Shown here: piece after piece, positions 35,405 to 58,996 of the stretch
Layout: every line of letters begins with the position of its first letter
Position numbering within the stretch: the stretch's first letter is position 1
Assembly: GCA_963976795.1 (NCBI GenBank)
Contig: CAXBLT010000006.1
Coordinates: 81,791 to 145,790 of the forward strand
DNA from: an uncultured Gammaproteobacteria bacterium
GTDB taxonomy: Bacteria > Pseudomonadota > Gammaproteobacteria > Eutrophobiales > Eutrophobiaceae
Length of the DNA: 64,000 nucleotides
Direction: 5' to 3'
Program-made: the position numbers and the translations under genes
Notes under the pieces: model-generated
What the model was told of the DNA's origin: nothing
The model's input: only the letters and a program-made list of their open reading frames with translations
Databases searched by the model: none

Positions 35405-35419
35405 AATTAAAATCCTCTA

Positions 35420-36550: not shown

Positions 36551-38989
36551 TTATGCGGGCGCGTTACCTGTTAAGGCTGCATCATTCGCATTATTAGTTT
36601 GTTCCCGTTCTTCATTAAAAATGAATTTTGGTTTAAAAATATATGCCATGGCAGGCATCAAGAACAATGCTGATAAAGCAGATACGGTAAGCCACATGCC
36701 AATTAGCATACCCATTTCAGCCTGGAAGCGTAATGAGGAGAAGAGCCACACTCCAACGCTGACAATCAAGACAAGCGCAGTAACCAATACACCGCGGCCA
36801 GCACAATGCAATGATATTGCAATTGCCTCTAGGTGAGATTTTCCTAAATCATACTCACCCTTAATTCGATCACAAATATATAGTGTGTAATCCACACCTA
36901 GCCCAATTCCTAAAGCAGCAACAGGAACGGTATTAATATTCATACCTATATTTTGCCAAGACATGAAAGCAAAAGTAACAAGATTCGCTAACACAACTGG
37001 CACCATAAAAAACATACCGGCAATACTAGAGCGATATACAACGATACACATCATCACCAGAATGAACAGGGCTAAGGCAATCGATTGTATCTGCCCAGAC
37101 AAGATGACCTCATTCACAGATGCAATTACACCTATAATTCCACCCGCCAATCTAAAGTTAGCAAGTTCTTGTAGCTCGGGGTTATCTTTTATGAATTGTT
37201 TAACACGCGCAATTGCCGTTTGAATCGTCACACCTTTTCTATCTGAAAAATACATCAGCACGGAGGCATAATTAATATCAACATCAGTGAAACGTAACAA
37301 ATCACCTGGTTCAGCCGCTCGTTCAAACATGAACAATAATTCTCCATTCTGATCAGTATTCGTACCTAATTCTGAATATCGAAAGTTACCTTCACGTAAA
37401 GTCTGGTTAACTGAAGGGAGTACGTCGGCTACGGATATAGTAGCTCCAATTTCTTTTTGTTGTTCCATGTACTGCTGAAATCGCAGCATACCATCAAGAA
37501 TTTCAACATCTTTTATCTTCCCTGTGACCTTCCCACCAAACTCATTCTTTGCACCTTCTTCAACACCCCCTACAACAACAAACATCCTGTCTGCACCGGG
37601 AAATTGTTTATTTATGTTTGCAGAATCCACGTTATAACGACCATCTGGCCAAAGAATAGGAGAACCAGGATTAGCATCACCTACTTTTAAGTCAACTGCG
37701 TAGATCCCGCTCACTATGAATAATAAAACTGCCAATGCCACAACAACATATCTTGCTTTAGTCGCAACAACATTAACGCAGATATTTAAGAAAGGTCTGA
37801 TCACTAGCAAATCCAGATTAAGCGGATGCGCATATGACTTTGGCTTTTTGACCCATGACAGTAATACAGGTGTCACGATGATAGAACTAATAGCCACGGT
37901 ACCAACCCAGACAACGGCTAAAACAACTAATTTTTGCAATAATGGAATGGGACTAATCGCGACCACTGTCACGCAACCTGCATCAGTTGCGATCCCTAAC
38001 AAGCCAGGTCTAAGTAGATCTTTCATTGTCACGGTTGCCGCAGACAGGGAGTCTAGATCTTCCTCATGTCCTTCAACTTTATCGATCTCTTCATGGAACC
38101 GAGTCATCATCTGCACTGAGTGAGATACCGCTCGAGCTGTAATCAGCATGGCAACAACAACAACCAGTGGGTCAAAGTGAATACCGCATAATTGCGCTAC
38201 ACCCAAAGCCCAGACAGCACTAATAGCACCCGACAACATAGGCAAGATAGTTCCACGCCAAGTCCTGTTTATAACGAATAACAAGACAAGAAAAATTGCC
38301 GCGGCAATACTGATAAGCTTCATTGTTTCTGGTAGGAAGTGGTCAACCCAGCCATACAATATCGGGTTACCCACCAAACTTATATCAACAGTGTCGTCAT
38401 CAAGCCTTTCCACTAACTCATATGCTTGTTTATACGCAAGATTGAAATCGAGTAGATTGTCGAAAAAATCCACTGTAATGAGTGTTGCCGTTAAGTCTTT
38501 TGATACAAAAGGTCCATAAACCAGTGGGCTACGTAAAATAGCCTCTTTCATATAATCGATATCAGCTTGAGTCTCTGGTAAATCTGGCCACATATACGGA
38601 AAGCTTTCAATACCAACTGTAGACGCTCTGGTTTCTTTAAGTTTTTTACCCGCTATAGAGTAGATCTGAAATTCATTTATGGCGTCAATCTTGTATAAGC
38701 CTTGAGTAAGGTCTCGTATTTTTTTCAAGACCGGCATTTGAAAGATATCACCTTCTTTTGATTGAATCATGAAGGTAATAATACTGGTACCGCCAAAAGT
38801 ATCCTTAAATTGCTCGTGTACTTTTATATAGGGGTGTGAACCAGGCTGTAAATCTTCGAATACCGTTTTGACATCTATTCGATAAGCAAAATTTGCTAAA
38901 ATAGCTGTTACAACAATGACCATTGCGAGCACAACTTTTCTGTGTCTCATACAAAATAAAGCAAAATTCTCTAACATTTCTTTCTCCAA
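36551..38989 (-). CDS. RND-superfamily (MMPL/HpnN-like) inner-membrane exporter.
   Basis: 812 aa. Two repeats of 1 TM plus a large periplasmic loop plus 5 TM. A sterol-sensing-domain-like region. It is the last gene of a four-gene minus-strand cluster. Confidence 0.85.
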   Translation of the reverse strand: MEKEMLENFALFCMRHRKVVLAMVIVVTAILANFAYRIDVKTVFEDLQPGSHPYIKVHEQFKDTFGGTSIITFMIQSKEGDIFQMPVLKKIRDLTQGLYKIDAINEFQIYSIAGKKLKETRASTVGIESFPYMWPDLPETQADIDYMKEAILRSPLVYGPFVSKDLTATLITVDFFDNLLDFNLAYKQAYELVERLDDDTVDISLVGNPILYGWVDHFLPETMKLISIAAAIFLVLLFVINRTWRGTILPMLSGAISAVWALGVAQLCGIHFDPLVVVVAMLITARAVSHSVQMMTRFHEEIDKVEGHEEDLDSLSAATVTMKDLLRPGLLGIATDAGCVTVVAISPIPLLQKLVVLAVVWVGTVAISSIIVTPVLLSWVKKPKSYAHPLNLDLLVIRPFLNICVNVVATKARYVVVALAVLLFIVSGIYAVDLKVGDANPGSPILWPDGRYNVDSANINKQFPGADRMFVVVGGVEEGAKNEFGGKVTGKIKDVEILDGMLRFQQYMEQQKEIGATISVADVLPSVNQTLREGNFRYSELGTNTDQNGELLFMFERAAEPGDLLRFTDVDINYASVLMYFSDRKGVTIQTAIARVKQFIKDNPELQELANFRLAGGIIGVIASVNEVILSGQIQSIALALFILVMMCIVVYRSSIAGMFFMVPVVLANLVTFAFMSWQNIGMNINTVPVAALGIGLGVDYTLYICDRIKGEYDLGKSHLEAIAISLHCAGRGVLVTALVLIVSVGVWLFSSLRFQAEMGMLIGMWLTVSALSALFLMPAMAYIFKPKFIFNEEREQTNNANDAALTGNAPA

Positions 38990-39049
38990 CGAGCCGAAAT
39001 CAAATACTTCGACTACCCCTAATTATTTATTATTATTTGAATAAAAAAT

Positions 39050-40123
39050 CTAATCGGCCAACAATGTCCATGTATCTGTTTTTAGGTCCATTGAGCCTAC
39101 TGTTTGACCAACTGACAAAAAACTAGCCCCATCAATAGATAATTCAGTATGTGATGTTAGATCTGTATCTGACAGGTTTTTTGAATCAAATTGCGTCAAA
39201 TCTGCTGAAAATGTTATCCACTTGCCTTTGTTACCAACGGCCACCCACTCATTTGTCTCATCAGACCACTCCACATCCATTAAATGCTCAGTCATACCGG
39301 ATACTTTGGGTTCGATATAAGTCCAAGTCTCGCCGCCATCTTTTGTTGCCACAATGGCACCGCCCAAGCCTACAACAACACCTTCAGTAGGAGTGCGAAA
39401 CGCCACAGCAGTAAAGCTGTTTGGACTATCAGTTTGGGTATCTTCCCAGGTCTTACCGTTGTCGCTGCTTTTGAATATCAGACCAAACTCGCCAGCTATA
39501 TAAAGCGTAGTCTCATCAACTCGAACAATATCATTCATGAAGACATCCTCTTCTTCACGCATTTGCGTCCATGTATTACCATAATCATGACTATTGAGTA
39601 TCATGCCCATTTCGCCCACTGCCCAGGCTTCTCCGTTTGGATAAGAATGAACACGAAGCAATTTGTTAGCGGTATCTGATTTTGGTGAGTCAACTTCTAC
39701 CCAAGTCTTACCACCGTCATCAGTCCTGAGAGTAACGCCTTCGTTACCGACAGCTACTGATTTATTTTCATCCCAAGAGGTTATGTCTTGCAGGTGAGAG
39801 TCAACAGGTGCTGTTTGGCTTTCCCATGTCCGTCCCTTATCTCTGGAAATGAGAAGTTTCCCATAGTTTCCAGCTGCCATATAGACATCAGAACTTACTT
39901 TGCTTAAACCAAAAATATTATCACGTACATTAATTACAGGAGGGATAACTTCTTCTATCACAGCAGTGGGTTTGACGAAGATACCAGCCCATAGCAAGGT
40001 ACCCACAATAGCCCAAGGCATTATAGAGAGAATAAGCTTTGCAAACTTCTGCCCAAGTGAATCAGCAGTATTAGTTGTTCCAGACATTTGTTCTGCTGCG
40101 GTATTATTTTCTGACATGTTCAT
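39050..40123 (-). CDS. BNR-repeat / Ycf48-like beta-propeller protein (N-terminal membrane anchor).
   Basis: Repeated BNR (Asp-box-like) motifs: 'DKGRTWESQ', 'DGGKTWVEV', 'YGNTWTQM', 'DNGKTWEDT', 'DGGETWTYI'. Length is 357 aa. Confidence 0.75.
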   Translation of the reverse strand: MNMSENNTAAEQMSGTTNTADSLGQKFAKLILSIMPWAIVGTLLWAGIFVKPTAVIEEVIPPVINVRDNIFGLSKVSSDVYMAAGNYGKLLISRDKGRTWESQTAPVDSHLQDITSWDENKSVAVGNEGVTLRTDDGGKTWVEVDSPKSDTANKLLRVHSYPNGEAWAVGEMGMILNSHDYGNTWTQMREEEDVFMNDIVRVDETTLYIAGEFGLIFKSSDNGKTWEDTQTDSPNSFTAVAFRTPTEGVVVGLGGAIVATKDGGETWTYIEPKVSGMTEHLMDVEWSDETNEWVAVGNKGKWITFSADLTQFDSKNLSDTDLTSHTELSIDGASFLSVGQTVGSMDLKTDTWTLLAD

Positions 40124-40316
40124 AACAACCCTTCTTCATAAAGTAATTCTTAACCAAGAGGATCTAAAGAAGCATTAGTAATCCTATGAATGGTTAACGC
40201 GTCATTCGTATTTGATTACACCCCATAAAAATTAAAGTAGGTAGCTGCTAGATAAGGTCTATCTAACAGCTACCATTGAGGGGGGAGAACAATATTAAAA
40301 CTAATTTATTGTTATG

Positions 40317-41594
40317 TTACTTAGCGATACTGATTAACTTCTTAAGAGTCACATCATCCGCTTCAACACCTGCTGGATTGGCTTTCATATTGGATGACCA
40401 AGTAGTAGAGAACTCAGCCTTCCAATCGATGATATGACCAACTACTGGCATAGTAGCTAAATATCCATCATCACCAACATCACGACGGTTTTGGAAAATA
40501 AATGATTTCCAGAATTTGCCGTTTTGGTCAAGTGCTTCACCATAGTATGGGCGAGGATAATCAACTTCCATCCAGACCGTTTTCTGACTGTATGGATGTT
40601 CATCTGGTGGTATACCTTCAATTACCCATACTTCACGAGGCTCCCATTGCACTTGTGGTGCAGGAAAGAAATGCGGAGGAATATCCATACCTACGGCGGG
40701 GAATTCTTTGATGGTGTTCTTATAGGTTAAATCAACAGTCATAAGTGGAGCATGTGCAATCGCAAAGATCCATTCGCGACCTATCAATTTAGTAGACTTG
40801 TATTTAGTTGGTACCGCGTCCCAAATGTCCCAATCATCATACAACTGCACGGTTCCACCAATGGGGTCCATCCACGCATTACCTGTTAAACGACGTGCGC
40901 GACGTACAGACTTCAAGTAAGCCCATGTATCATCTGGTGTCTTTGCAGTAGGATCATTGTAACGAATTGAGAAGATACCTAAACCTTTAATATCTTGTGG
41001 GTAGGTAGCAACCAATACGGTTTTTTGTAAGATAGTACCATCACCCTCAGAAATAGGTCCGCCATCAAGACGTCCTTCCATATAGTAACGCTGAGCCCAC
41101 CAACGTTGAATACGTTCCATACCCTTTGTAGCATCCAGAAACACCCATGAGATGTGACGAAGATCCATAGTTGCGCCATAAGTAGGTCCGCGCAAGTTCC
41201 AAATCAGCTTGTCTCCAGCATAAGGGTCATCCATCTTGATGTCTTGTGGATCAAAAAACATGCCTGCTTCCCATCCAGATACAGTACGATCAGAAGGATT
41301 GAACTTAACGGTTTCCTTACTTTTCTGGGTCCATGTCATGTATTTCTCATCCATAGGAACAGGCTCTGAATGACGAACAGGAATCTTTAAGTGGTGGTTA
41401 CGAATCATCCACTCATATTTACCTGGCAACATATCACCGACACGCTTGCCTTCGAATGTCATGTCGATTACTTGATCGAGGTTCTCTGCACTGATTATGG
41501 TGCCTTCAGGCATCTCTTCAGCAACAGCGCTCAATGGAGCGCCTACAAGCAGCCCCAAAGAAACTACTGATGTAGCTAATATTTTCTTATACAT
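40317..41594 (-). CDS. DUF1329-like periplasmic protein (LolA-like fold family). The family assignment is from memory and not searched.
   Basis: Signal peptide 'MYKKILATSVVSLGLLVGAPLSAVA'. 425 aa soluble protein encoded between a DUF1302-like barrel and a BNR protein, which matches the recurring DUF1302-DUF1329-BNR-RND synteny. Confidence 0.55.
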   Translation of the reverse strand: MYKKILATSVVSLGLLVGAPLSAVAEEMPEGTIISAENLDQVIDMTFEGKRVGDMLPGKYEWMIRNHHLKIPVRHSEPVPMDEKYMTWTQKSKETVKFNPSDRTVSGWEAGMFFDPQDIKMDDPYAGDKLIWNLRGPTYGATMDLRHISWVFLDATKGMERIQRWWAQRYYMEGRLDGGPISEGDGTILQKTVLVATYPQDIKGLGIFSIRYNDPTAKTPDDTWAYLKSVRRARRLTGNAWMDPIGGTVQLYDDWDIWDAVPTKYKSTKLIGREWIFAIAHAPLMTVDLTYKNTIKEFPAVGMDIPPHFFPAPQVQWEPREVWVIEGIPPDEHPYSQKTVWMEVDYPRPYYGEALDQNGKFWKSFIFQNRRDVGDDGYLATMPVVGHIIDWKAEFSTTWSSNMKANPAGVEADDVTLKKLISIAK

Positions 41595-41682
41595 ATAATA
41601 CTCCTACGTTTTAACAATCGTCCTGCATTGCTGCAGGACATAATGAGTAACTAATACTTTTTTACACAACTACTTAATTAAC

Positions 41683-43332
41683 TTAGAACTGTCTTGTAAC
41701 TTTTAAAACTAACTGATTATCATCGGCAAACCAGTCAAACAATGATGCGCTGTTTTCCGAAACACCTAATGGGTTTACTTTGCCGCCTGCAGCAGTACTT
41801 GCAGAGACTTTCTTCTCGTCACCATCACTCCACCAAAGATCAGCTTCTAACTTGACACGCCAATCATCGCCAAAGACTAGCTCAACAGCGGCGATACCAA
41901 AACCACCACCGTTACTTAAGTCAGTACCAACGACAAATGTTGGGTTAATCGTGTCACGTTTGAAGTTTAACAATGAGAATATTGTCAAATAAGCTGTGTG
42001 CTCTCTCTTTTGCGCACCGAAAGAGGCAAACTCAACGATTTCATCTGAGTCTTTATGATCTAATATCCAAGTATCAAATAACTGCACACTAGATAAGGAT
42101 GGGCGGTTGGTACCTAGATATTTTCCCCACTTAAACTCTTTATCGATGCGGAACATGGTAACCAAGGTATCTTTTGTCTTAACACCTTCCCAACCTGGGA
42201 GAGAAGAACCTAAAGCACCAAAGTTGTATGGCTTATTAGGGATAAACGCGACTTCCGCACTCAATGTTGAATCAATAATCGGCGCATAACCGTTTGCACT
42301 GACACCAAATACATTAATATGAGGATAGATCCAATCACCCAACACGCCATTTTGTGCAACCTCACCAAAAGAATTCATTGCACCGACACCAAAAGCGCCT
42401 GGTGTCGCAGAATTCACCGCGGGGTTCATAATAGGAGCAGGGTTGAACGTCCTTAGATATGCTACTGAGTATCCAATTGAACCAATATCACTATTCCAAC
42501 GAAAACCAAAGGTTGGATCGTCTTGTGAACCATCCGTATGATCAGCATTATATTGCGTAAATGCTGTAAAATCGACACCACGATATGGGTGTGGAATCCA
42601 GCGTCCGCCTTCAATATTAAAGTTACTGCCCACATCATCATCACGATCCAGACCCGGGCGCACGAAGAAATTCAGGCTACCACCAAGTTCGTCATATAAA
42701 TCTAAATCAAAATTGACCAAGAATAATGGTTTACGCCAATCTTCGTTATTCTCAAAAAACAGTCTCCAACGATAATCAAAACCATGCACCAAATCCATGG
42801 CCTGGAAGAAATCACTCTCACCCCAAACCAATTGTTGCTTACCGACTCGCATGTTTAACTTACCATCAAACAATGCGAAATCTGCATAGTATTCACGGAA
42901 AAACTCTTGTATATGGTCCGTGTTGTACTGATCGAGATACTGACCACGAGTAGCTGTACCATTGTTTGATGTTAATTTAGTCATGCTTTCGAGTGAATCA
43001 AGATAATCCGTTTGCAACTCCCTATCAAACCGACTAACGATTTTCCAAGAGACTGGACCAGTATAGATATCGGTATCCAGCAACAATGTGGCTCGAGCCA
43101 TAGTAAAATCAAACTGATCGTTTTCAGGTGTTTCAGCGTGATCCTCAAGACCTACCCCAAAATATGTACGGGCATAGCCACTCACAGCAAAGCTCCAATC
43201 TTCTCCAAAGCCGCCTGTACAGGTGTCACAAGCTGGTTCATCTGCAGCCATTACAGAACCAGTCGCAACGGTTCCCCCAAAACACAATAGAAAACCTGCG
43301 GCTTTCAATATATTGCTATTATATTTTTTCAT
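41683..43332 (-). CDS. DUF1302-like outer-membrane beta-barrel protein. The family assignment is from memory and not searched.
   Basis: Signal peptide 'MKKYNSNILKAAGFLLCFGGTVATGSVMA'. 549 aa. A C-terminal Phe ('...VTRQF') is typical of OM beta-barrels. It is the first gene of the cluster. Confidence 0.55.
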   Translation of the reverse strand: MKKYNSNILKAAGFLLCFGGTVATGSVMAADEPACDTCTGGFGEDWSFAVSGYARTYFGVGLEDHAETPENDQFDFTMARATLLLDTDIYTGPVSWKIVSRFDRELQTDYLDSLESMTKLTSNNGTATRGQYLDQYNTDHIQEFFREYYADFALFDGKLNMRVGKQQLVWGESDFFQAMDLVHGFDYRWRLFFENNEDWRKPLFLVNFDLDLYDELGGSLNFFVRPGLDRDDDVGSNFNIEGGRWIPHPYRGVDFTAFTQYNADHTDGSQDDPTFGFRWNSDIGSIGYSVAYLRTFNPAPIMNPAVNSATPGAFGVGAMNSFGEVAQNGVLGDWIYPHINVFGVSANGYAPIIDSTLSAEVAFIPNKPYNFGALGSSLPGWEGVKTKDTLVTMFRIDKEFKWGKYLGTNRPSLSSVQLFDTWILDHKDSDEIVEFASFGAQKREHTAYLTIFSLLNFKRDTINPTFVVGTDLSNGGGFGIAAVELVFGDDWRVKLEADLWWSDGDEKKVSASTAAGGKVNPLGVSENSASLFDWFADDNQLVLKVTRQF

Positions 43333-43825
43333 TCCTCCCCCTTAAAGAGTTTTAAAAAACTAAAATCGTCATAAAAAATTGTTCTTTTTTATTAACAAAA
43401 CTAACACTTCTTATAACGATATCTGAAGATGGGGAACAAGTTTTATGCCAAACAGAGAGAACCTGCCTATTCTAAGGGTAAGCCTCTGATATATAAGAAC
43501 AACACTGTTCACAATTCCATCGCCAATTTGCTTATACCGGACTATATAAGAACGACTGTGTGCTAACATGGAACGGTTTTCTATAAACCGTTCAACCAGT
43601 GTGGTTTTTAAAGGATATTCAACCGTATTTTTTAATAAAATAGTCAGTAATTTGAACTATTTATGCTACTAAATAATCAATTTTGTGGAAGTTAATGAAT
43701 AATGTTAACATTTAGGCCAATTTATCCTTAAACGATACATTGAGTAGGCCTTTGGTTAAGTATTTTCCCGTAAAGACCTTATAAACAAGATTCTTGTACA
43801 CGGTGGTGTTAAATAACTAAATTCC

Positions 43826-45835
43826 ATGAGTCAATCACTAAAAGAAGCCGACATCAATACACACTTTTATTCCCAAAAAGATGTTGACCAAGCTTGGGAT
43901 AGTTTTCTTTGCTCAGGAGGGGCGTCAAAGAATCTGCCTGTACGCGATATGATAGCCAGCTCATGGGAGCGCTGCCTATCTCAAGGTGTCAATCCTGAGC
44001 AAACTGCAGCGCCGCTCTTAGCCACCGAGGGCACCTTACATATCCTTCGCCAAAATAATACTGATCTCATGAAATGCGCACGACCTGTCTTAGCACAGGC
44101 CAGGGTCTTTTTACGCGATCTTGACACAATATTAATTCTGACTGACTACAACGGGGTCAATCTGGATGTTGTCGGAGATCCTAAGTGTGTTGAAGATGCT
44201 GTCGGAATTGGAATGGTGCCAGGTAGTGGCTGGAAAGAGACTGTTTCCGGATCAAATGCTGTAGGTACAGCGATGGCAACGGGGATGCCTACACAAGTCC
44301 ACGGAGAAGAGCATTTCATACAAGGCTTTAAGCCCTGGACATGCACTGCTGGGATAATAAGCGATCCATATGACAATCAATTGATCGGCGTAATTGACGT
44401 TTCTGGCTTATCAGCCACATTTGATAAATTCCACGTCCCTTTAGTCGTATCATGGGCCAATCAAATTCAATTGTCACTCGCCAAAAACACCTCTGAGCAA
44501 TGGAGTCTCATCAGAGAAAACAGCCAGTGTGACTTTAAAAATAGTCACCGAAATGCTGGGAGAATGTTATTTGATACGCAAGGAAGGCTGGTTGACCACT
44601 CTCAAAATGCCTGTTCAATACTCAATTCACTCGGTATTGGATATGATCTTTCTATGAAGTCTCGCTTATCGCTAGAGCGTTTTGGCGGAGACGAGATTGT
44701 GTATCCTCATGACGCAGGGTTATGGCTATCAAGTGATTGGATCGAACCCGTCAAGGATAAAAACGAGGTGATAGGTTTCAAGATAGAACTACCCACAAAC
44801 AAACGCTCCTCGCAACGAACAAACCCATCGTCTGCTATTGCAGCGGTTAAAATCAACTCACAAGCAGATCCTTTTGGCAAAATATCAGGACAAAGTGCAT
44901 CAGTTAGAGCCAGCATTGAAAAAGCTAGTAAAGCAGCTACGACACCACTTCCTGTTCTAATTTTAGGCGATACAGGTGTCGGAAAAGAAATGTTTGCTCG
45001 AGCTATACATGAAGCGAGTAACTTCGCTAATGGTCCATTTATTGACCTGAACTGTGGCGCTTTCACTAAAGATATTTTAAGCAGTGAACTATTTGGTCAT
45101 GTCGAGGGTGCTTTCACAGGCGCAAAAAGAGGCGGTATGATGGGGAAAATTGAAGCTGCAAATGGCGGCACACTATTTCTGGATGAGATAGGTGAAATGC
45201 CACTTGAGATTCAACCTGTTTTTCTAAGGGTTTTACAAGAAAGAAAGATACATCGTGTTGGTGCTATTGCACCAATTCCAGTCAACTTTAGACTCATTGC
45301 TGCCACAAATAGTTATCTTAAACGAGAAGTTTCTGAAGGCCGATTTAGAAAAGATTTATTCTTCCGTTTATCCACAGTTGCAATTGCGCTTGATCCTCTT
45401 TCAAGACGAAAAGAAGACATTGAAGAGATTGCACACTTAGTTTTAAAAGAAATTCAAAATTCTCAAGAGATTGTGCCTAAACGAATATCCGCCTCTTTAA
45501 TAACCTCACTAAAAAACCGGGAATGGCCAGGCAACATTAGAGAGTTAGTAAATGTGATTGAATGCATGTGTTATATGTCTTCAAATGAGACCCTAACCAT
45601 TGAGGATTTACCTGCCGGTTATCAACCGGGAGAATCACTGATCAGCGGAGTACCTTCTGAACAAAATCAACCGTCTGAGTCTCTATCGAACCTGGATATT
45701 GCAGAACAACAAGCAATTGAAAATGCAATTATTGAGTTTGGTGGCAATATCACTCAAGCAGCTAAAAACCTGGGCATCGCAAAAGGTACCCTCTATCGAA
45801 AAATGAAAAAATATAAATTAGAAAATCCTCGTTAG
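43826..45835 (+). CDS. Sigma-54-dependent enhancer-binding transcriptional activator of the AcoR/AcxR type (N-terminal sensory domain, AAA+ sigma54-interaction domain, C-terminal Fis-type HTH).
   Basis: AAA+ motifs: Walker A 'GDTGVGKE', GAFTGA motif 'GAFTGA', 'GGTLFLDEIGEMP'. C-terminal HTH 'AAKNLGIAKGTLYRKMKKY'. N-terminal '...ASSWERCLSQGVNPE...' as in AcoR-family regulators. Confidence 0.85.
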   Translation: MSQSLKEADINTHFYSQKDVDQAWDSFLCSGGASKNLPVRDMIASSWERCLSQGVNPEQTAAPLLATEGTLHILRQNNTDLMKCARPVLAQARVFLRDLDTILILTDYNGVNLDVVGDPKCVEDAVGIGMVPGSGWKETVSGSNAVGTAMATGMPTQVHGEEHFIQGFKPWTCTAGIISDPYDNQLIGVIDVSGLSATFDKFHVPLVVSWANQIQLSLAKNTSEQWSLIRENSQCDFKNSHRNAGRMLFDTQGRLVDHSQNACSILNSLGIGYDLSMKSRLSLERFGGDEIVYPHDAGLWLSSDWIEPVKDKNEVIGFKIELPTNKRSSQRTNPSSAIAAVKINSQADPFGKISGQSASVRASIEKASKAATTPLPVLILGDTGVGKEMFARAIHEASNFANGPFIDLNCGAFTKDILSSELFGHVEGAFTGAKRGGMMGKIEAANGGTLFLDEIGEMPLEIQPVFLRVLQERKIHRVGAIAPIPVNFRLIAATNSYLKREVSEGRFRKDLFFRLSTVAIALDPLSRRKEDIEEIAHLVLKEIQNSQEIVPKRISASLITSLKNREWPGNIRELVNVIECMCYMSSNETLTIEDLPAGYQPGESLISGVPSEQNQPSESLSNLDIAEQQAIENAIIEFGGNITQAAKNLGIAKGTLYRKMKKYKLENPR

Positions 45836-45918: not shown

Positions 45919-46905
45919 TTATTCATTATTCACAAGCACCATCCCATAAAAACCAGCTTGTTCAATTAGCTCATGTGATTCTACGATTTTATCCAATGCT
46001 ATTATGTGTGCGATCCTGTGCTGTAATAAACCTCTTTCCAGAAAATCTGTGACATCGTAGATTGCATCTGCCTTAGCTGACTCTGGCATCGCATAAACCA
46101 ATACCATGCGTATCGTTAGATCCATAAACATCATTCGTTTAAAAGGTATCACGGGTTCTGGAACCTGCATTGAAGCATAAGTCGCAATCGTAGCACCTAT
46201 ACGTGCCACATCTAAAAGTACAGGCAGATTCCCGCCAAACTCACCATCAATAATACGTTCAACACCCTGACCATTTGTCATTTCAGCAACCGTATCAAGC
46301 AATTCAACTCCTTGATGTGGACAAACTACATCGGCACCCGCAGCATAGCAATGCGCTTCTGCCTCAGAATTACTCGCTGTCGCAATTACATTGGCGCCGG
46401 CATATTTTGCAAGCTGAATAACATAATGACCTACTCTTCCAGCACCGCCCGTTACCAAGATTGTTTGACCTTCGACCGGGCCATCAGCAAAGATACATCG
46501 ATGTGCCGTCATGGTGGGTATCCCTATACACGCACCAATATCAAATCCAATATTATCGGGTAGTAGCACTGCTCTATTGGAATCAACTGACACGTATTCA
46601 GCGGCGGTTCCAAAACGGCGGCCATACTGAGCTTGATAAACCCAAACGCGCTCACCTATCCGCGAATGTGGTACACCACGGCCAACGGCTTCTATTACGC
46701 CTGAGCCATCACTATGAGGGATAATAAAACCATCTTTAAGTAAATCTGGAAACGCACCTGCACGTTTTTTCACATCTGACGGGTGTACTGCAGAATAATT
46801 TAACCGTACTAAAACCTCTCCATGTTCTGGTGAAGGGACATCAAGCTCAACGATATTCAACACATCATGTGCCGAACCCATCTTATTATATTGTGCTGCC
46901 TTCAT
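45919..46905 (-). CDS. MDR-family NAD(P)-dependent oxidoreductase (quinone-oxidoreductase-like), distal gene of the carboxylase operon.
   Basis: 328 aa. GroES-like N-domain and Rossmann motif 'ILVTGGAGRVGHYVIQLAK'. Confidence 0.8.
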   Translation of the reverse strand: MKAAQYNKMGSAHDVLNIVELDVPSPEHGEVLVRLNYSAVHPSDVKKRAGAFPDLLKDGFIIPHSDGSGVIEAVGRGVPHSRIGERVWVYQAQYGRRFGTAAEYVSVDSNRAVLLPDNIGFDIGACIGIPTMTAHRCIFADGPVEGQTILVTGGAGRVGHYVIQLAKYAGANVIATASNSEAEAHCYAAGADVVCPHQGVELLDTVAEMTNGQGVERIIDGEFGGNLPVLLDVARIGATIATYASMQVPEPVIPFKRMMFMDLTIRMVLVYAMPESAKADAIYDVTDFLERGLLQHRIAHIIALDKIVESHELIEQAGFYGMVLVNNE

Positions 46906-46999
46906 TAACTTACCTTTTATCCTTTACTTGATTGTGCATCAAGTCTAATAACCATAATTAAAAGAATATCGCTCATTAATCAACCTGATGAATAGCACA

Positions 47000-48016
47000 C
47001 TATCGGTCATTAACAATAACGATTTTGCCAAAATGCTTAGCTGCAGTGAGATGCTCATAAGCACCCATTGCATCGCTAAATGCAAATGACTTATCAATAG
47101 TTGGCTTAAGATTATTATCAATAATAACCTTGTTCATCGCATTAAACATCTCAACACTACCGACATAAATCCCGTGAACCCGCAGTAGATTAAATATTAC
47201 GGATAAATTAAATGCTGGTCCATCAAACCCGGATAACAATCCAATCATTGAAACGATACCATTGACCTTTGCCGAAGCTATCGATTTTTCAAAAGTGCCT
47301 ACACCACCAACTTCCAATACATTATCAACACCATTTCCATCCGTAATTTTTAAGACTTCATCTTCCCAGTCAGGATGTTCACGATAATTAACTGTATGAT
47401 CAGCACCCATCTTACGAGTCCGTTCTAATTTTTCATCACTGGATGAAGTAATAATAACTCTTGCGCCCAAAGCTTTTGCCAACTGTAAACCAAAAATGGA
47501 AACACCTCCGGTTCCCAACAACAATACTGTATCACCTTTTTTTAAGTCCCCCATTGATACTAATGCATGCCATGCAGTAACGGCGGCGCAAGGCAAAGTC
47601 GCAGCTTCTTCATACGATAATTGTTCAGGAATGGGTAATGCAGCATTTGCTTTTAAAACAAAGTAATCAGCCAAAACACCATTAATTGAACCACCTAATG
47701 CAGAGTGCAAACCTGCCATACTCATCGGTCCGTCAATCCATTCCTGAAAGAAATTACCAACAACCCTATCCCCTACCTTATGAGTTGTAACCGAACTACC
47801 AACAGCAACAACTTCTCCGGCACCATCTGACACAGGAATAATGGGTCTAATATCATTGCGTACATAACCACCTTGTGGAATCAGCAAATCACGAAAGTTA
47901 AGTGAACATGCTTTCATTTTCACCAAAACCTCATCCGCTGCCGGTTTTGGTTCGTTTAACTCGATCAGTTTTATATCTTCAAAACCATCTGTTGTTTGTA
48001 CCTGATATGCACGCAT
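47000..48016 (-). CDS. MDR-family zinc-type alcohol dehydrogenase / quinone oxidoreductase.
   Basis: 338 aa. 'LVKMKACSLNFRDL', 'VLLLGTGGVSIFGLQLAKALGARVI'. Confidence 0.8.
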   Translation of the reverse strand: MRAYQVQTTDGFEDIKLIELNEPKPAADEVLVKMKACSLNFRDLLIPQGGYVRNDIRPIIPVSDGAGEVVAVGSSVTTHKVGDRVVGNFFQEWIDGPMSMAGLHSALGGSINGVLADYFVLKANAALPIPEQLSYEEAATLPCAAVTAWHALVSMGDLKKGDTVLLLGTGGVSIFGLQLAKALGARVIITSSSDEKLERTRKMGADHTVNYREHPDWEDEVLKITDGNGVDNVLEVGGVGTFEKSIASAKVNGIVSMIGLLSGFDGPAFNLSVIFNLLRVHGIYVGSVEMFNAMNKVIIDNNLKPTIDKSFAFSDAMGAYEHLTAAKHFGKIVIVNDR

Positions 48017-48090
48017 AAACTTTTAAACCTCTTTAAAAATTATTGTGAATTGTAAAGCGTTAAATTTCTGTTTGTAAATCACAGTCTAAT

Positions 48091-49356
48091 TTATTTCACA
48101 CGCCGCATAACAGAAACGCAGTTTGTTACCCCTGAACCGCCTATGTTAACGGTCATCGCCAATTCCGGCTGCCCTTTTGCAGCAACACCAATAGGATCGC
48201 CGATTAGTTGTTTATAAGCCAACGCATGCATAGATGCACCTGTTGCGCCAACAGGGTGCCCCTTTGACTTAAGACCTCCGGAAAGATTGATAGGACAACT
48301 CCCGTCCGTATCATATTTTCCTTCCATAAAGTCGTACCCTGCACGACCCGATTCAGATAGTCCCATCGCTTCTGCACAGAGCATTTGGTTTATGGTAAAG
48401 CAATCGTGAACTTCTGCTAACTCCATATCTGTCACCTTCACCCCTGCCTCGGTACACGCTTGTTGTACAGCGTGTTTTGCCGCTTGAAGCTCATGTAAGG
48501 TTTCTTTGCGCTCGCTCATCATCATACGTTGTGTCACATGACCTATACCAGAAAGTTCAACAGCATGGTTAAAGTTCGCTTTAGCATTCTCAGTTGATGT
48601 AAGAACAACTGCAGCAGCGCCATCAGAAATCAAAGAACAATCATGCAGTCTTAATGGTGGTGCAATCAGTGGATTACTGCCTTTACCTGAGTCAGGTAAA
48701 TCAAGAATAGCATCTGCGGTCACTAATTGCTTTTTATCAGGCAGGCTTCCAGGCCCAAAGTGAGCTAGCGGATTATGAATGCCATTGCGATAATTTTGCG
48801 CAGCAATATGCGCAAACATAATGCGAAGTTCTTCATCACTCATTCCATGTTTTGCTTGATAGGCTTTTGCTAACTCACCAAACAAGCCAGGGAAAGTCAC
48901 ACCCATAGAACCCTCTTCGGGCCAATATGAACTACACGCCAAGGCATGAGTAACACCTTTAGTATCCAACAGACTCATTTTCTCAACACCAAGCGCAAGG
49001 ACATTCTTAAAACGACCACTGGCCACGGCATAAGCTGCGTTATATATAGCAACAGATGAAGTTGCACAAGCGCCTTCCGTACGTGTTGTTGGTTTATAGA
49101 GTAATCCATCGGGATCAATTTCCAACGCCAATGGTGCCACATGTTCCTGATTTACGAACATGGAAGGAGAACAAGAGCCGAGCCAAACTGCATCGATATC
49201 CTTTGCCTCCAGACCGGCATCGGCAATTGCACCTGCCCCTGCTTCTATTATTAATTCATAAAACGATTTTAAATCTTCTACTTCACCTGTTTCTCTATCA
49301 CGCTTAACAAACGCACCGAACTGAGTATTGTGTGCACCAACTATACTAATATCCAT
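48091..49356 (-). CDS. Thiolase-superfamily protein (SCP-x / nonspecific-thiolase-like), a candidate beta-ketoacyl-CoA thiolase.
   Basis: 421 aa. The N-terminus 'MDISIVGAHNTQFGAF' and C-terminal 'NLSGGLKSKGHPVGATG' are thiolase-fold signatures. Confidence 0.8.
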   Translation of the reverse strand: MDISIVGAHNTQFGAFVKRDRETGEVEDLKSFYELIIEAGAGAIADAGLEAKDIDAVWLGSCSPSMFVNQEHVAPLALEIDPDGLLYKPTTRTEGACATSSVAIYNAAYAVASGRFKNVLALGVEKMSLLDTKGVTHALACSSYWPEEGSMGVTFPGLFGELAKAYQAKHGMSDEELRIMFAHIAAQNYRNGIHNPLAHFGPGSLPDKKQLVTADAILDLPDSGKGSNPLIAPPLRLHDCSLISDGAAAVVLTSTENAKANFNHAVELSGIGHVTQRMMMSERKETLHELQAAKHAVQQACTEAGVKVTDMELAEVHDCFTINQMLCAEAMGLSESGRAGYDFMEGKYDTDGSCPINLSGGLKSKGHPVGATGASMHALAYKQLIGDPIGVAAKGQPELAMTVNIGGSGVTNCVSVMRRVK

Positions 49357-49431
49357 CTGACTGTCCTCTCCACATAAAAACGTGGATTAAAAATGTGAAA
49401 AATAAAATTAAAGATATAACAAAATTTGAAT

Positions 49432-50997
49432 TTATATTTTGCGATCAAGCTTGTCCCAAAAATATTTACGGATTTCTTTTTTCAATACTTTGCCAACAGA
49501 GCTACGAGGTAATTCATCCCAAATTAAAATCTCTTTTGGCGATTTAACGCTGCCTAATTTTTGCTTACAAAGTTCAATTATTTCTTGTGTATTCGGTTTA
49601 ATAGCAGCTTCCTTTAGTTCAACTACGGCTGTTACTTGCTCACCCCATTTTTCATCCGGGATACCAATAACTGCACAGTCTTTTATTGCTGGATGCCCCC
49701 AGATAAGTTGTTCAATCTCCCCGGGGTACACATTAAACCCGCCAGATATGATCATATCGCGTTTGCGATCGACAATAGATAAATATCCATCATTATCAAA
49801 GACGCCAACATCTCCGGTTTTTTGCCAGCCATTTACACGTATCTCTTGCGTTGCATCTGGGTTATTGAAGTAACAACGCATTATTAAGTCCCCTTTTACG
49901 GCAATTTCACCTTCTTTTCCTGCTGGAAGCGTATTCCCATCATCATCCAGAATTGCTAGATCAATATGTGGTGCTGTTTTGCCACAAGAACGAATCCTGG
50001 AAGAATCACCGCTTTCAACTGCATGAACATGATCATCAACTGAGAGAAAAGTACAAACCATTGGCGATTCTGCCTGCCCATATGTTTGAACCATCACAGG
50101 ACCAAAAACCTCAATGGCTTCTTTGAGTTTTTCTACGGACATCGGCGCAGCGGCATACCAAAAATACCTTAAACTTGAGTAATCATAATTCCTGACGCCT
50201 TCATGAGCCAATAGCATATATATGGCTGTGGGTGGCAAAAATAGATGCGTGACCTTATATTTTTCGATAACAGATAATAAAATATCGGGGATCATGCCTT
50301 CCATTACAACGATGTTTGAGCCTTGTAAAATCGGTGCAAATGACGCAACACCTGCGGCATGCGTCATCGGCGCACTCACAAGATAGCATGAAGGTATATC
50401 AGGTTCTGGCATTAATTCTATTTGAATAGACACCATCGATTGCCATGTTAAGTATCCCCACTCTGCTAATTTAGAATCACCTGTTGTACCTCCCGTTGGG
50501 AACAAACTTACTAATTTAGACTCATCTCTTCTTGTTAGCTTTTCTTCTGTGTCTTGATCAATACTCTTTATAAAATTTTCAATTGCAACTCCAGCTATTT
50601 CTTTAGCTGTAAATGACAAACAATTCTCACCCTTATATTGTTCGCCAAGCTCAGGATTAGAAGCAAGGATGTTCGAGTCAACAAAAAGTAACCTTGTATC
50701 AGATTTTTTTAGTAACTTTAAATTAGCTTCCAGAGTATTTCTAACATTGAGTGGTAACCAGATCGCACCTAATTGGGAAATTGCAAAAATACAGCAATAG
50801 GCGGCAACAGAATTTGGCGCATAACTTGCGACAACATCCTGCTCATGAACACCTTTGTCTCTTAACTGTACGGCAATATGTTGTGCTACATTAAATACTT
50901 CTTGATAGCTAAGTGAAACATCATTGTCGATATCGATAAACTTTGCATCACCCTCGGCAAACGCAGGGCTATGTTCGAGAAAATCAATAATGCGCAT
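49432..50997 (-). CDS. AMP-dependent acyl-CoA ligase, a candidate beta-ketoacid--CoA ligase.
   Basis: 521 aa. AMP-binding motifs 'FPTGGTTGDSK' and 'YGQAESPM'. C-terminal 'SSVGKVLKKEIR'. Confidence 0.85.
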   Translation of the reverse strand: MRIIDFLEHSPAFAEGDAKFIDIDNDVSLSYQEVFNVAQHIAVQLRDKGVHEQDVVASYAPNSVAAYCCIFAISQLGAIWLPLNVRNTLEANLKLLKKSDTRLLFVDSNILASNPELGEQYKGENCLSFTAKEIAGVAIENFIKSIDQDTEEKLTRRDESKLVSLFPTGGTTGDSKLAEWGYLTWQSMVSIQIELMPEPDIPSCYLVSAPMTHAAGVASFAPILQGSNIVVMEGMIPDILLSVIEKYKVTHLFLPPTAIYMLLAHEGVRNYDYSSLRYFWYAAAPMSVEKLKEAIEVFGPVMVQTYGQAESPMVCTFLSVDDHVHAVESGDSSRIRSCGKTAPHIDLAILDDDGNTLPAGKEGEIAVKGDLIMRCYFNNPDATQEIRVNGWQKTGDVGVFDNDGYLSIVDRKRDMIISGGFNVYPGEIEQLIWGHPAIKDCAVIGIPDEKWGEQVTAVVELKEAAIKPNTQEIIELCKQKLGSVKSPKEILIWDELPRSSVGKVLKKEIRKYFWDKLDRKI

Positions 50998-51027
50998 TTT
51001 GTTTCCTGAGCAAAACTTGCCCGGAGA

Positions 51028-51882: not shown

Positions 51883-51883
51883 T

Positions 51884-54163: not shown

Positions 54164-54177
54164 AGTTTATTACCTCG

Positions 54178-56325: not shown

Positions 56326-56382
56326 AATCTACTTTCCTATAACTTTTTAGTAGTTTGACTTATTGTTCGTAGTATTTATTAA

Positions 56383-58845: not shown

Positions 58846-58861
58846 AGCATTTATCATGCCA
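58846..58861 (-). promoter_or_regulatory. Candidate sigma-54 (-24/-12) promoter, TGGCAT-gataa-ATGCT, about 120 nt upstream of the first carboxylase gene.
   Basis: The minus strand reads TGGCATGATAAATGCT. GG and GC are spaced exactly as in the TGGCAC-N5-TTGCW consensus. Confidence 0.5.
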
Positions 58862-58962
58862 TAAACTTAATCAACACTTTTTAAACTATATCTAACTGTT
58901 TTATTAGATAGTTTGCTAAAAGAATTAAAATAATTCTTGCATATTGCTCGTTCTATAATCGA

Positions 58963-58996
58963 ACGTTTGAATGCAGATCGTACTAATTTCAAACGT
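58963..58996. promoter_or_regulatory. Inverted repeat ACGTTTGAA-N16-TTCAAACGT, about 110 bp upstream of the sigma54 promoter. Candidate enhancer (UAS) for the AcoR-type activator.
   Basis: Read from the DNA. Its position relative to the -24/-12 element is typical for bEBP sites. It also lies just after the stop of the convergent reductase gene, so it could alternatively be an atypical terminator hairpin. Confidence 0.3.

What the first reader, a model, noticed from the sequence alone, without database searches (positions are those of the whole stretch)
43826..45835. AcoR/AcxR-type sigma54 activator positioned between the envelope module and the carboxylase operon, with a matching -24/-12 promoter and an upstream inverted repeat at 58.8-59.0 kb.
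- The regulator has a complete AAA+ sigma54-interaction domain (GAFTGA) and a Fis-type HTH.
- A near-consensus sigma54 promoter (TGGCAT-N5-ATGCT) lies 120 nt upstream of the first carboxylase gene.
- A 9-bp-arm inverted repeat (ACGTTTGAA ... TTCAAACGT) lies a further 110 bp upstream, the canonical enhancer position.
- I could not find an equally good sigma54 promoter in the 493-bp region upstream of the DUF1302 gene, so its regulation is open.

This gives a concrete, testable regulatory model for the locus.
Basis: seen in the sequence. Interest (0 to 1): 0.6.

Follow-up and report, generated by a model that had tools for sequence, protein, structure and literature searches.

The report
Ketone-sensing sigma-54 activator and its two promoters
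A sensor-activator gene of a known type (relatives switch on acetone-degrading genes) very probably turns on two neighbouring operons, a five-subunit ketone carboxylase pathway and an envelope transporter, through sigma-54 promoters and shared upstream binding sites; this is a tidy new example of a known regulatory design, not a new one.

Summary
The gene at 43826-45835 encodes a 669-aa sigma-54 activator with MimR_N and GAF sensor domains, an AAA+ domain carrying GAFTGA, and a Fis-type HTH. It is 37% identical over its full length to an AcxR-type regulator lying next to acxABC.

TGGCATGATAAATGCT (58861..58846, minus strand) lies 118 nt upstream of the first carboxylase gene. A -24/-12 element sits at the same position in 45 of 70 related loci across Gamma-, Beta- and Alphaproteobacteria.

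It is not unusual (13.7% of shuffles contain one) and its distal arm is not conserved. The conserved enhancer unit is a 17-bp palindrome, CGTYC-N7-GRACG. It is perfect at 58949-58965, with two degenerate copies at 15-bp steps.

It also has an exact IHF consensus and the same palindrome at the same distance, about 97 bp.

The carboxylase is the acetophenone-carboxylase (apcABCDE) type, not acetone carboxylase. The envelope genes resemble AmeABCD. The verdict is a new member of a known kind. All regulatory links are inferred from sequence.

The parts
43826..45835 (+). Regulator gene (REG, 669 aa): MimR_N + GAF sensor, sigma-54 AAA+ domain with GAFTGA, and a Fis-type HTH.
   Evidence: Pfam; motifs; precomputed Pfam, including PF26965 MimR_N, on the identical Tara Oceans protein. 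It is 36.9% identical over 96% of its length to the regulator next to acxABC in C. pinatubonensis. It is the only sigma-54 activator in the window.
58846..58861 (-). Sigma-54 promoter of the carboxylase operon, TGGCATGATAAATGCT (GG at 58860-58859, GC at 58848-58847). The predicted transcription start is near 58836.
   Evidence: A site matching at least 10 of 12 positions sits 80-160 nt upstream of the orthologous first gene in 45 of 70 loci. The background is 173 such sites in 2.86 Mb. It aligns with TGGCAT/TGGCAC-N5-nTGCT in the closest relatives.
58949..58965 (.). Proximal enhancer site, a perfect 17-bp palindrome CGTTC-N7-GAACG. Its centre is about 97 bp upstream of the -24 GG.
   Evidence: It is the only perfect match in the window. 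It is identical in L001 and L020 and has one mismatch in L007. The motif is about 20-fold enriched upstream of the orthologous promoters and was recovered by an unbiased palindrome search in 34 distant loci.
58964..58980 (.). Middle degenerate palindrome (gene strand CGATC-N7-AAACG, 2 mismatches). It shares its CG ends with the neighbouring sites.
   Evidence: Whether it is a site is an inference from the 15-bp register of the three copies.
58979..58995 (.). Distal degenerate palindrome (gene strand CGTTT-N7-GTACG, 2 mismatches), 30 bp from the proximal site.
   Evidence: A 30-32 bp spacing of paired sites is also seen in L027 and L028 and at the acxA promoter of C. pinatubonensis.
58963..58996 (.).
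   Evidence: It is real. The distal arm is not conserved in L001 or L020. Such a repeat occurs in 13.7% of shuffles. It appears to be a by-product of the overlapping half-sites.
58884..58905 (-). Conserved AT-rich box AATAAAACAGTTAGATATAGTT between the enhancer and the promoter, centred near -58. It may be a site for a DNA-bending protein.
   Evidence: It is conserved from the closest MAGs to Porticoccus. It matches only about 7 of 9 positions of the IHF consensus, so the binding factor is not assigned.
45919..58727 (-). Carboxylase pathway operon:
- alpha' 56790-58727
- gamma 56383-56790
- alpha 54178-56325
- beta 51884-54163
- epsilon-like 51028-51882
- acyl-CoA synthetase 49432-50997
- thiolase-like 48091-49356
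- two MDR oxidoreductases, 47000-48016 and 45919-46905
   Evidence: Pfam and NCBIfam. The gene order and subunit sizes match apcABCDE plus a CoA ligase (PMC5214803). Gaps between genes are 0-94 nt and no terminator was predicted in them. The five carboxylase genes are conserved in all complete loci among the 80.
43435..43450 (-). Sigma-54-type promoter of the DUF1302 (AmeABCD-like) operon, TGGCATAAAACTTGTT, with GT instead of GC at -12. It lies about 100 nt upstream of the ATG at 43332.
   Evidence: it is one of only two exact TGGCAY-N5-TTGY matches in the window. The block TTGGCATAAAACTTGT is conserved in L002, L003, L004, L007 and L020, and L008 and L012 have a canonical TTGC there. Eight of eight betaproteobacterial loci have a sigma-54 site in front of the first gene of the module.
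43479..43491 (-). IHF consensus TATCAGAGGCTTA between the enhancer and the promoter of the DUF1302 operon, centred near -60.
   Evidence: It is one of 12 exact WATCARNNNNTTR matches in the window. It is conserved in L002, L003 and L004.
43538..43593 (.). Enhancer region of the DUF1302 operon:
- CGTTC-N7-GTCCG (43538-43554; centre about 97 bp from the -24 GG)
- CGTTC-N7-GCACA (43559-43575)
- a perfect GAACG-N13-CGTTC (43571-43593)
   Evidence: The block ACCGTTCCATGTTAGCACACAGTCGTTCTTATATAGCTCGG is nearly invariant in L002, L003, L004 and L020. L008 has a perfect CGTTCGATTATTGGACG about 114 bp upstream of its promoter.
36551..43332 (-). AmeABCD-like envelope module: DUF1302 41683-43332, DUF1329/LolA-like 40317-41594, BNR/Ycf48-like 39050-40123, MMPL/RND 36551-38989.
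   Evidence: Pfam. The comparison is with AmeABCD of Castellaniella defragrans (PMC6394551).

Best explanation
REG is a ligand-sensing sigma-54 activator of the AcxR/MimR/AcoR kind. It controls a two-operon regulon.

Proposed mechanism:
1. REG dimers bind through the C-terminal Fis-type HTH to 17-bp palindromes, CGTYC-N7-GRACG, clustered about 95-130 bp upstream of the -24 element.
2. There are three overlapping copies at 58949-58995 for the carboxylase operon and two or three at 43538-43593 for the envelope operon.
3. A ketone, most likely the substrate of the adjacent carboxylase, binds the N-terminal MimR_N/GAF module and relieves inhibition of the AAA+ domain.
4. The AAA+ domain oligomerises and reaches promoter-bound sigma-54 holoenzyme by DNA looping. 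IHF probably assists looping at the envelope promoter, and a conserved AT-rich box may do so at the carboxylase promoter.
5. ATP hydrolysis opens the promoter through the GAFTGA loop.

Output:
(i) An acetophenone-carboxylase-type five-subunit ketone carboxylase, with a CoA ligase, a thiolase-like protein and two MDR oxidoreductases. Together these would convert a secondary alcohol or ketone to a beta-keto acid, then a beta-ketoacyl-CoA, then acetyl-CoA plus an acyl-CoA.
(ii) An AmeABCD-like four-part envelope transporter for a hydrophobic compound.

Shown here: domain content, promoter and palindrome sequences, and their conservation, enrichment and spacing. Inferred: binding of REG to these sites, dependence on sigma-54, IHF involvement, the ligand, and operon extent.
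For: - Architecture and motifs are complete.
- Full-length homology of about 37% to a regulator divergently adjacent to acxABC. At that locus a sigma-54 promoter and GTCC-N7-GGAC-type palindromes 31 bp apart sit in front of acxA. AcxR is described as a sigma-54 activator with a TGGCATG-N4-TTGC promoter in PMC2864759.
- REG homologues lie within 10 kb of the five-gene carboxylase cluster in most of the 80 loci from three proteobacterial classes. The HTH segment GN(M/L)TxxAxxLGIAK(S/G)T(L/V)Y is conserved throughout.
- The sigma-54 element is conserved upstream of the first carboxylase gene.
- The palindrome occurs at 4.3 per kb in the -200..-40 interval against 0.22 per kb elsewhere in the same loci.
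- An unbiased palindrome scan of 34 distant loci recovers TCCG-N5-CGGA (p 4e-14) and GTCC-N7-GGAC (p 9e-9).
- In the window, both promoters carry the palindrome centred about 97 bp from the GG.
- The envelope module has sigma-54 sites in distant genomes even where its gene order differs.
- REG is the only sigma-54 activator gene in the window.
- The simple scan found no sigma-70-like promoter on the coding strand, and no terminator, in the 281-bp spacer.
Against: - There is no experimental evidence of any kind.
- The envelope promoter has GT instead of the nearly invariant GC at -12.
- The second and third sites at the carboxylase promoter have 2 mismatches each, and sites with 2 mismatches occur at chance frequency in the window.
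- The Porticoccus clade keeps the promoter but shows a different upstream repeat, with no site within 1 mismatch.
- Having a REG homologue within the flank is not significantly associated with a promoter score of 10 or more (30/43 against 15/27, Fisher p 0.31). Regulators may lie beyond the 10-kb flank, as REG nearly does here.
- The palindrome was first read from the window and its closest relatives before being tested on distant loci.
- rpoN is not in the window.
Confidence: 0.7

Rival explanations
1. One reading: the 9-bp-arm inverted repeat ACGTTTGAA-N16-TTCAAACGT is itself the enhancer bound by the activator.
For: The repeat is perfect and sits at a canonical enhancer distance. It overlaps the conserved region, and its proximal arm is conserved in L020 (TTCAAACGT) and partly in L001.
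Against: The distal arm aligns with AGTGAAAAA and AGTTAAAAA in L001 and L020, which otherwise keep the enhancer. No such repeat is present at the DUF1302 promoter or in distant loci, whereas the 17-bp palindrome is. A repeat of this kind occurs in 13.7% of shuffles.
Confidence: 0.12
2. The inverted repeat acts in RNA, as a 3' stem-loop or weak terminator of the upstream oxidoreductase gene that ends at 59009. On this view the carboxylase genes are partly read through from upstream.
For: The repeat starts 13 nt after the stop codon. The RNA folds to -16.1 kcal/mol with z = -2.25.
Against: There is no U tract after the stem, and the terminator scan does not report it. The hairpin is not conserved in the closest relatives. 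It does not explain the conserved sigma-54 element downstream.
Confidence: 0.08
3. The sigma-54 promoters are real but are served by a different activator encoded elsewhere. REG would control only its immediate neighbours or itself.
For: REG lies 13 kb from the carboxylase promoter. Fifteen loci have the promoter with no REG homologue within 10 kb, and the adjacency association is not significant.
Against: The same palindrome occurs at both promoters at identical spacing, one of them directly next to REG. REG homologues sit immediately upstream of the carboxylase genes in many Beta- and Alphaproteobacteria. The AcxR locus has the same motif core. No other activator is in the window.
Confidence: 0.1

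Closest known systems
AcxR, the sigma-54 activator of acetone carboxylase acxABC (Xanthobacter autotrophicus Py2, Cupriavidus metallidurans CH34, C. pinatubonensis)
   Same: - Same full-length architecture.
- 36.9-37.2% identity over 96% of REG to the regulators at the Cupriavidus loci; the C. pinatubonensis one lies next to acxABC.
- GAFTGA motif and a TGGCATG-N4-TTGC-type promoter (PMC2864759).
- GTCC-N7-GGAC palindromes about 120-150 bp upstream of the promoter.
   Different: - The target here is a five-subunit apc-type carboxylase with a CoA ligase and thiolase, not the three-subunit acxABC.
- A second target operon (envelope module) is predicted.
- The regulator lies at the 3' end of the operon, 13 kb from the promoter, not divergently adjacent to it.
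- The inducer is unknown.
MimR, acetone-responsive activator of the mimABCD monooxygenase genes in mycobacteria
   Same: The N-terminal sensor belongs to the Pfam family named after it (PF26965 MimR_N), followed by GAF, AAA+ and HTH. It regulates ketone or propane catabolism (PMC8394569 for the gene cluster; acetone response from my own knowledge of Furuya et al. 2011, which I could not read here).
   Different: It is actinobacterial, its target is a binuclear-iron monooxygenase, and the promoter type differs. Sequence identity to REG was not measured.
AcoR / DhaR group (COG3284, 'transcriptional regulator of acetoin/glycerol metabolism')
   Same: A REG homologue carries that source annotation (P0125). 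The only solved relative of the REG sensor is the DhaR N-terminal domain (4lrx, E 2e-6). DhaR is the second-best NCBIfam hit.
   Different: All NCBIfam scores are far below the equivalog cut-offs (321 against 551 for DhaR). DhaR is controlled by protein partners rather than a small ligand (my own knowledge).
Acetophenone carboxylase ApcABCDE plus benzoylacetate-CoA ligase of Aromatoleum aromaticum
   Same: - Gene order alpha'-gamma-alpha-beta-epsilon followed by a CoA ligase, with matching subunit sizes.
- The alpha fingerprint R/KERiDsxG is present in the 715-aa subunit (RERLDFEG) and absent from the 645-aa one.
- Four cysteines in gamma (sequence).
   Different: - NCBIfam Apc models score 119-579 bits against cut-offs of 250-1500, so this is a distant paralogue with an unknown substrate.
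- The epsilon-like protein matches no family.
- The apc operon of A. aromaticum is, to my knowledge, controlled by a two-component system, not a sigma-54 activator.
AmeABCD tetrapartite HAE3-type RND system of Castellaniella defragrans
   Same: The same four components: a DUF1302 outer-membrane protein, a DUF1329/LolA-like protein, a BNR/Ycf48-like protein and an RND/MMPL pump (PMC6394551). It is likewise embedded in a catabolic island for hydrophobic compounds.
   Different: Gene context and substrate differ. Sigma-54 control has not been described for Ame in the paper read. The direction of transport is unresolved; esterase and export roles have been proposed for the Pseudomonas homologues.

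Membership tests
Bacterial enhancer-binding proteins (sigma-54 activators) | AAA+ sigma-54 interaction domain with Walker A, Walker B and the GAFTGA loop | tested here: met
   PF00158 with E 3e-63 at residues 353-520. GDTGVGKE starts at 381, GAFTGA at 428 and LFLDE at 450.
Bacterial enhancer-binding proteins (sigma-54 activators) | C-terminal Fis-type DNA-binding HTH | tested here: met
   PF02954 HTH_8 at residues 626-663, E 1.8e-11. It is conserved in homologues from 50 loci.
Bacterial enhancer-binding proteins (sigma-54 activators) | Activation depends on RpoN and ATP hydrolysis | not testable with these tools
   This needs genetics or in-vitro transcription. rpoN is not in the window.
AcxR/MimR/AcoR-type ligand-sensing subgroup | N-terminal MimR_N + GAF sensor and no receiver domain | tested here: met
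   GAF at 83-217. PF26965 MimR_N is in the precomputed Pfam list for the identical protein. No Response_reg hit.
AcxR/MimR/AcoR-type ligand-sensing subgroup | Full-length homology to a regulator genetically linked to ketone catabolism | tested here: met
   36.9% identity over residues 20-664 to the regulator divergent from acxABC in C. pinatubonensis. 39.9% identity to a Beijerinckia regulator lying next to a NAD(P)/FAD oxidoreductase and a serine hydrolase.
AcxR sensu stricto | Adjacent to and controlling three-subunit acetone carboxylase acxABC; induced by acetone | tested here: not met
   The linked carboxylase has five subunits in apc order. The inducer is not testable.
Sigma-54 promoter | GG at -24 and GC at -12, spaced as in TGGCAC-N5-TTGC, upstream of a gene and conserved | tested here: met
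   This row concerns the carboxylase promoter. It matches 10 of 12 positions with GG and GC in place and is conserved in 45 of 70 loci.
Sigma-54 promoter | The same criterion applied to the DUF1302 operon promoter | tested here: inconclusive
   TGGCAT-N5-TTGT has GT instead of GC at -12. It is nevertheless conserved in six close relatives and replaced by a canonical TTGC in L008 and L012.
[quoted passage not shown] | Gene order alpha'-gamma-alpha-beta(-epsilon); alpha fingerprint R/KERiDsxG; four-Cys gamma subunit | tested here: met
   The criteria come from PMC5214803.
Acetophenone carboxylase proper (NCBIfam ApcA-D equivalogs) | Score at or above the curated equivalog cut-offs | tested here: not met
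   338 against 1250, 119 against 250, 579 against 1500 and 306 against 1500 bits.
AmeABCD-like tetrapartite RND system | Co-located DUF1302, DUF1329/LolA-like, BNR/Ycf48-like and RND/MMPL genes | tested here: met
   Pfam. The module recurs beside the carboxylase cluster in many loci.

The most novel reading that the evidence does not exclude
A single ketone-sensing MimR_N/GAF activator, acting through GTYC-N7-GRAC operators, co-induces an uncharacterised Apc-type five-subunit ketone carboxylase pathway and an AmeABCD-type envelope transporter. This pairing is conserved from uncultured marine Gammaproteobacteria (Tara Oceans, oil-associated MAGs, Porticoccus) to Zoogloea, Aromatoleum and Xanthobacter. 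It would mark a widespread, still unnamed route for carboxylative breakdown of hydrophobic ketones, for example long-chain or isoprenoid methyl ketones derived from alkanes, phytol or carotenoids. The regulator would offer a ready-made handle for finding the substrate.
Probability: 0.4. Interest if true: 0.5.

Novelty: new member of a known kind. Interest (0 to 1): 0.3.

Why it matters
The finding supplies a concrete regulon model for a gene cluster common in marine hydrocarbon-associated bacteria whose substrate is unknown. The model is supported by cross-genome comparison and comprises two promoters, a defined 17-bp operator and a likely ketone sensor. Only one enzyme of the Apc branch has been characterised biochemically (PMC5214803), and the DUF1302/DUF1329 envelope systems have no settled function. 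An inducible promoter-regulator pair is a practical way to screen for the inducing ketone, and from there the pathway's substrate. The regulatory logic itself is textbook.

Tried and rejected
- Other top sigma-54 matches in the window, at 20793 (-) and 23681 (+), lie inside long ORFs. I treated them as chance.
- The half-site ACGTTTGAA with 1 mismatch occurs 24 times against 22 expected, so it is uninformative alone. Palindrome patterns with 2 mismatches are also at chance level window-wide. Only the perfect copies, their location and their conservation carry weight.
- Association between a REG homologue in the flank and a promoter score of 10 or more was not significant (p 0.31).
- The homologue search with the N-terminal sensor alone returned only 17 proteins, because of the word-index limit.
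- Literature searches found nothing on this carboxylase clade in Cycloclasticus or on methyl-ketone carboxylation. The MimR paper could not be read.
- Rfam finds no known RNA element in the long 5' leaders.
- An IHF assignment for the conserved AT box at the carboxylase promoter was rejected as unproven, since it matches only about 7 of 9 consensus positions.
- No sigma-54 site was found upstream of the DUF3237/oxidoreductase genes. The TGGCAT at 60706..60701 lacks a -12 element and is not conserved.
- Structure prediction was not used, because it would not bear on the regulatory claim.
Full report
**Observation.**
The ORF at 43826-45835 (+) encodes a 669-aa protein. Pfam finds GAF (83-217), Sigma54_activat (353-520, E 3e-63), AAA_lid_14 and HTH_8 (626-663). 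Walker A starts at residue 381, GAFTGA at 428 and Walker B at 450.

The element TGGCATGATAAATGCT lies at 58861..58846 on the minus strand, 118 nt before the ATG of the first carboxylase gene at 58727. It is one of four sites in the window that match 10 of 12 consensus positions with GG and GC in place. Two of the other three lie inside long ORFs.

The inverted repeat ACGTTTGAA / TTCAAACGT (58963-58971 and 58988-58996) is perfect. A repeat of this quality appears in 13.7% of shuffles of the spacer and in 16 of 227 window tiles, so it is weak evidence alone.

**Genes.**
The minus-strand operon encodes, in order:
- hydantoinase-A-type alpha' (645 aa)
- acetone-carboxylase-gamma-type protein (135 aa)
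- hydantoinase-A-type alpha (715 aa)
- hydantoinase-B-type beta (759 aa)
- a 284-aa protein with no family match
- an acyl-CoA synthetase
- a thiolase-like protein
- two MDR oxidoreductases

This is the apcABCDE order followed by a CoA ligase, as described for acetophenone carboxylase and 'similar enzymes' (PMC5214803). The alpha fingerprint R/KERiDsxG occurs in the 715-aa protein (RERLDFEG) and not in the 645-aa one. The gamma subunit has four cysteines (sequence). NCBIfam Apc models score far below their equivalog cut-offs. The enzyme is therefore an Apc-branch paralogue of unknown substrate, not acetone carboxylase.

On the other side of the regulator lie DUF1302, DUF1329/LolA-like, BNR/Ycf48-like and MMPL/RND genes. 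These are the four components of the AmeABCD system of Castellaniella defragrans (PMC6394551).

The exact regulator protein is encoded on Tara Oceans metagenome scaffolds. The closest genomes are uncultured Gammaproteobacteria, labelled 'Thiotrichaceae' UBA973 and UBA7357 and including oil-associated MAGs, followed by Porticoccus and Thalassotalea.

**Promoter conservation.**
I scanned one genome per species with an alignment of the beta subunit. This gave 80 loci. The five carboxylase genes are syntenic in every complete locus, and a homologue of the regulator lies within 10 kb in most.

A GG-N10-GC element matching at least 10 of 12 positions lies 80-160 nt upstream of the first carboxylase gene in 45 of 70 testable loci from Gamma-, Beta- and Alphaproteobacteria. 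Several more match 9 of 12. The background in the same loci is 173 such sites in 2.86 Mb of both strands, about 0.02 expected per 400-nt upstream region. The promoter call is therefore well supported.

**Enhancer.**
Aligning the spacer with the closest relatives shows three conserved blocks:
- the -24/-12 element
- an AT-rich box (window 58905..58884) centred near -58
- the sequence TTCAAACGTTCGATTATAGAACG

The core of the third block is a perfect 17-bp palindrome, CGTTC-N7-GAACG, at 58949-58965. It is the only perfect copy in the window. It is identical in L001 and L020 and has one mismatch in L007.

Two degenerate copies of the palindrome follow at 15-bp steps (58964-58980 and 58979-58995).

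Three further tests support the palindrome:
- In loci with a promoter, CGTYC-N7-GRACG with at most 1 mismatch occurs at 4.3 per kb between -200 and -40, against 0.22 per kb elsewhere. Perfect copies occur in alpha- and betaproteobacterial loci (L028, L053, L057, L058, L065). Positions cluster at 83-114 bp.
- An unbiased search of all 4-mer palindromes with spacers of 0-15, run on 34 distant loci only, ranks TCCG-N5-CGGA (p 4e-14), GTCC-N7-GGAC (p 9e-9) and CGTC-N9-GACG near the top. These are nested descriptions of the same site. CGGA-N6-TCCG (p 3e-20) also ranks high; it is the junction of two tandem sites.
- The HTH segment of the regulator is conserved across all these genomes, so a shared operator is expected.

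**The second promoter.**
In the 493-bp spacer between the regulator and the DUF1302 gene, the closest relatives conserve three elements.

The first is TTGGCATAAAACTTGTTCCCC (window 43450..43435). This is a -24/-12 element with GT in place of GC. It is one of only two exact TGGCAY-N5-TTGY matches in the window. L008 and L012 have a canonical TTGC at this position.

The second is TATCAGAGGCTTA (43491..43479), an exact IHF consensus. It is one of 12 in the window and is centred near -60.

The third is the block CCGTTC-N16-CGTTCTTATATAGYYCG, that is CGTTC-N7-GCACA and CGTTC-N7-GTCCG. In the window it is accompanied by a perfect GAACG-N13-CGTTC.

The proximal palindrome is centred about 97 bp from the GG at both promoters. 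In betaproteobacterial loci the envelope genes come in a different order, yet the first gene is preceded by a sigma-54 site in eight of eight cases, often with a palindrome about 150 bp further upstream. The envelope operon therefore most likely belongs to the same regulon.

**Regulator family.**
The identical Tara protein carries PF26965 MimR_N in front of GAF. A homologue is annotated 'regulator of acetoin/glycerol metabolism'. The only solved relative of the sensor is the DhaR N-terminal domain.

A tblastn search of plasmids and chromids gives 36.9% identity over 96% of the protein to a regulator in C. pinatubonensis. That regulator is divergent from a hydantoinase A / hydantoinase B / acetone-carboxylase-gamma cluster, i.e. 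an acxRABC locus. AcxR is described there and in C. metallidurans as a GAFTGA protein with a TGGCATG-N4-TTGC promoter (PMC2864759). At that locus I find TGGCATGAGCCTTGCC in front of acxA, two GTCC-N7-GGAC-like sites 31 bp apart about 120-150 bp upstream, and a perfect TGTCC-N7-GGACA near acxR.

Another homologue (39.9% identity) lies beside a NAD(P)/FAD oxidoreductase and a serine hydrolase. The family thus looks like a set of ketone-responsive activators sharing an operator core.

**Mechanism (inferred).**
Dimers of the regulator occupy the clustered palindromes. A ketone binding the MimR_N/GAF module releases the AAA+ domain to oligomerise. DNA bending brings it to sigma-54 holoenzyme, with IHF acting at the envelope promoter and an unassigned factor at the AT box of the carboxylase promoter. 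ATP hydrolysis then opens the promoter.

The products would take a secondary alcohol or ketone through carboxylation, CoA activation and thiolysis. They would also move a hydrophobic compound across the envelope.

**Rivals.**
- The 9-bp repeat as the true operator is disfavoured by conservation and statistics.
- An RNA hairpin or terminator role cannot be excluded, given -16.1 kcal/mol and z = -2.25. It lacks a U tract and is not conserved.
- A different activator acting on these promoters cannot be excluded, because adjacency statistics are weak (p 0.31). The shared operator next to the regulator gene argues against it.

**Limits.**
- Everything about binding, sigma-54 dependence, the ligand and operon boundaries is inference.
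- The palindrome was first seen in the window clade before being tested elsewhere.
- The Porticoccus clade shows a different upstream repeat.
- The GT at -12 is unusual. From memory, a few characterised sigma-54 promoters deviate at this position, but I could not verify this here.

**Verdict.**
The finding is real and its model is largely right, with the corrections described above. It is a well-supported new member of the AcxR/MimR-type sigma-54 activator systems. The regulatory design is ordinary. The interest lies in the uncharacterised pathway it controls.

Noticed in passing
window 61031-61046 (+) and 60920-60943: A near-consensus sigma-54 element, TGGCATAATGGTTGCT, lies 50 nt upstream of the monomeric isocitrate dehydrogenase gene (61096-63336). 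ATTCTGGCATAATGGTTGCTG is identical in L003 and L004 while the flanks diverge. A second conserved block (AAACGTCCGATTCATTTTCGATCG) lies about 100 bp upstream. Whether icd is sigma-54-dependent, and whether REG or another activator serves it, is unknown.
   Followed up: partly
L023, L024, L026, L029, L031, L034, L036, L053-L056 and others, about 130-170 bp upstream of the carboxylase promoter: A separate conserved palindrome, TGCG-N1-CGCA (e.g. TTGCGTCGCA), is strongly enriched in 11 of 34 distant loci (p 1.5e-14), just upstream of the activator sites. It is absent from the window. It may be a site for a second regulator.
   Followed up: no
L006, upstream of position 5441: In this relative (carboxylase 84-89% identical), the first carboxylase gene is preceded by the 3' end of an AraC-type regulator gene. 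There is no sigma-54 element and no REG homologue on the contig. This may be a regulator swap, but the contig ends early.
   Followed up: no
L082 (Beijerinckia indica plasmid pBIND02): The best plasmid homologue of REG (39.9% identity) lies next to a NAD(P)/FAD-dependent oxidoreductase and a serine hydrolase. This pairing is typical of Baeyer-Villiger ketone oxidation and fits a ketone-sensing family.
   Followed up: no
window 59009-60686 (-): A DUF3237 protein and an ADH_N_2-type NADP oxidoreductase (alkenal/enone-reductase-like) lie directly upstream of the carboxylase operon. They are syntenic in L001, L003, L004, L007 and L020. No sigma-54 site was found in front of them. They hint at an unsaturated ketone precursor.
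   Followed up: partly
window 34754-36124 (-): The ORF at 35420-36124, directly downstream of the RND gene, is a CoA-transferase family protein (Pfam). The adjacent ORF at 34754-35404 was not scanned. These genes may be linked to beta-keto-acid activation.
   Followed up: no
window 47000-48016 (-): The first of the two MDR oxidoreductase genes is missing from the otherwise syntenic L002, L003 and L004. The tail of the operon is therefore variable.
   Followed up: no
window 4215-4632 (-): A cluster of four tRNA genes.
   Followed up: no
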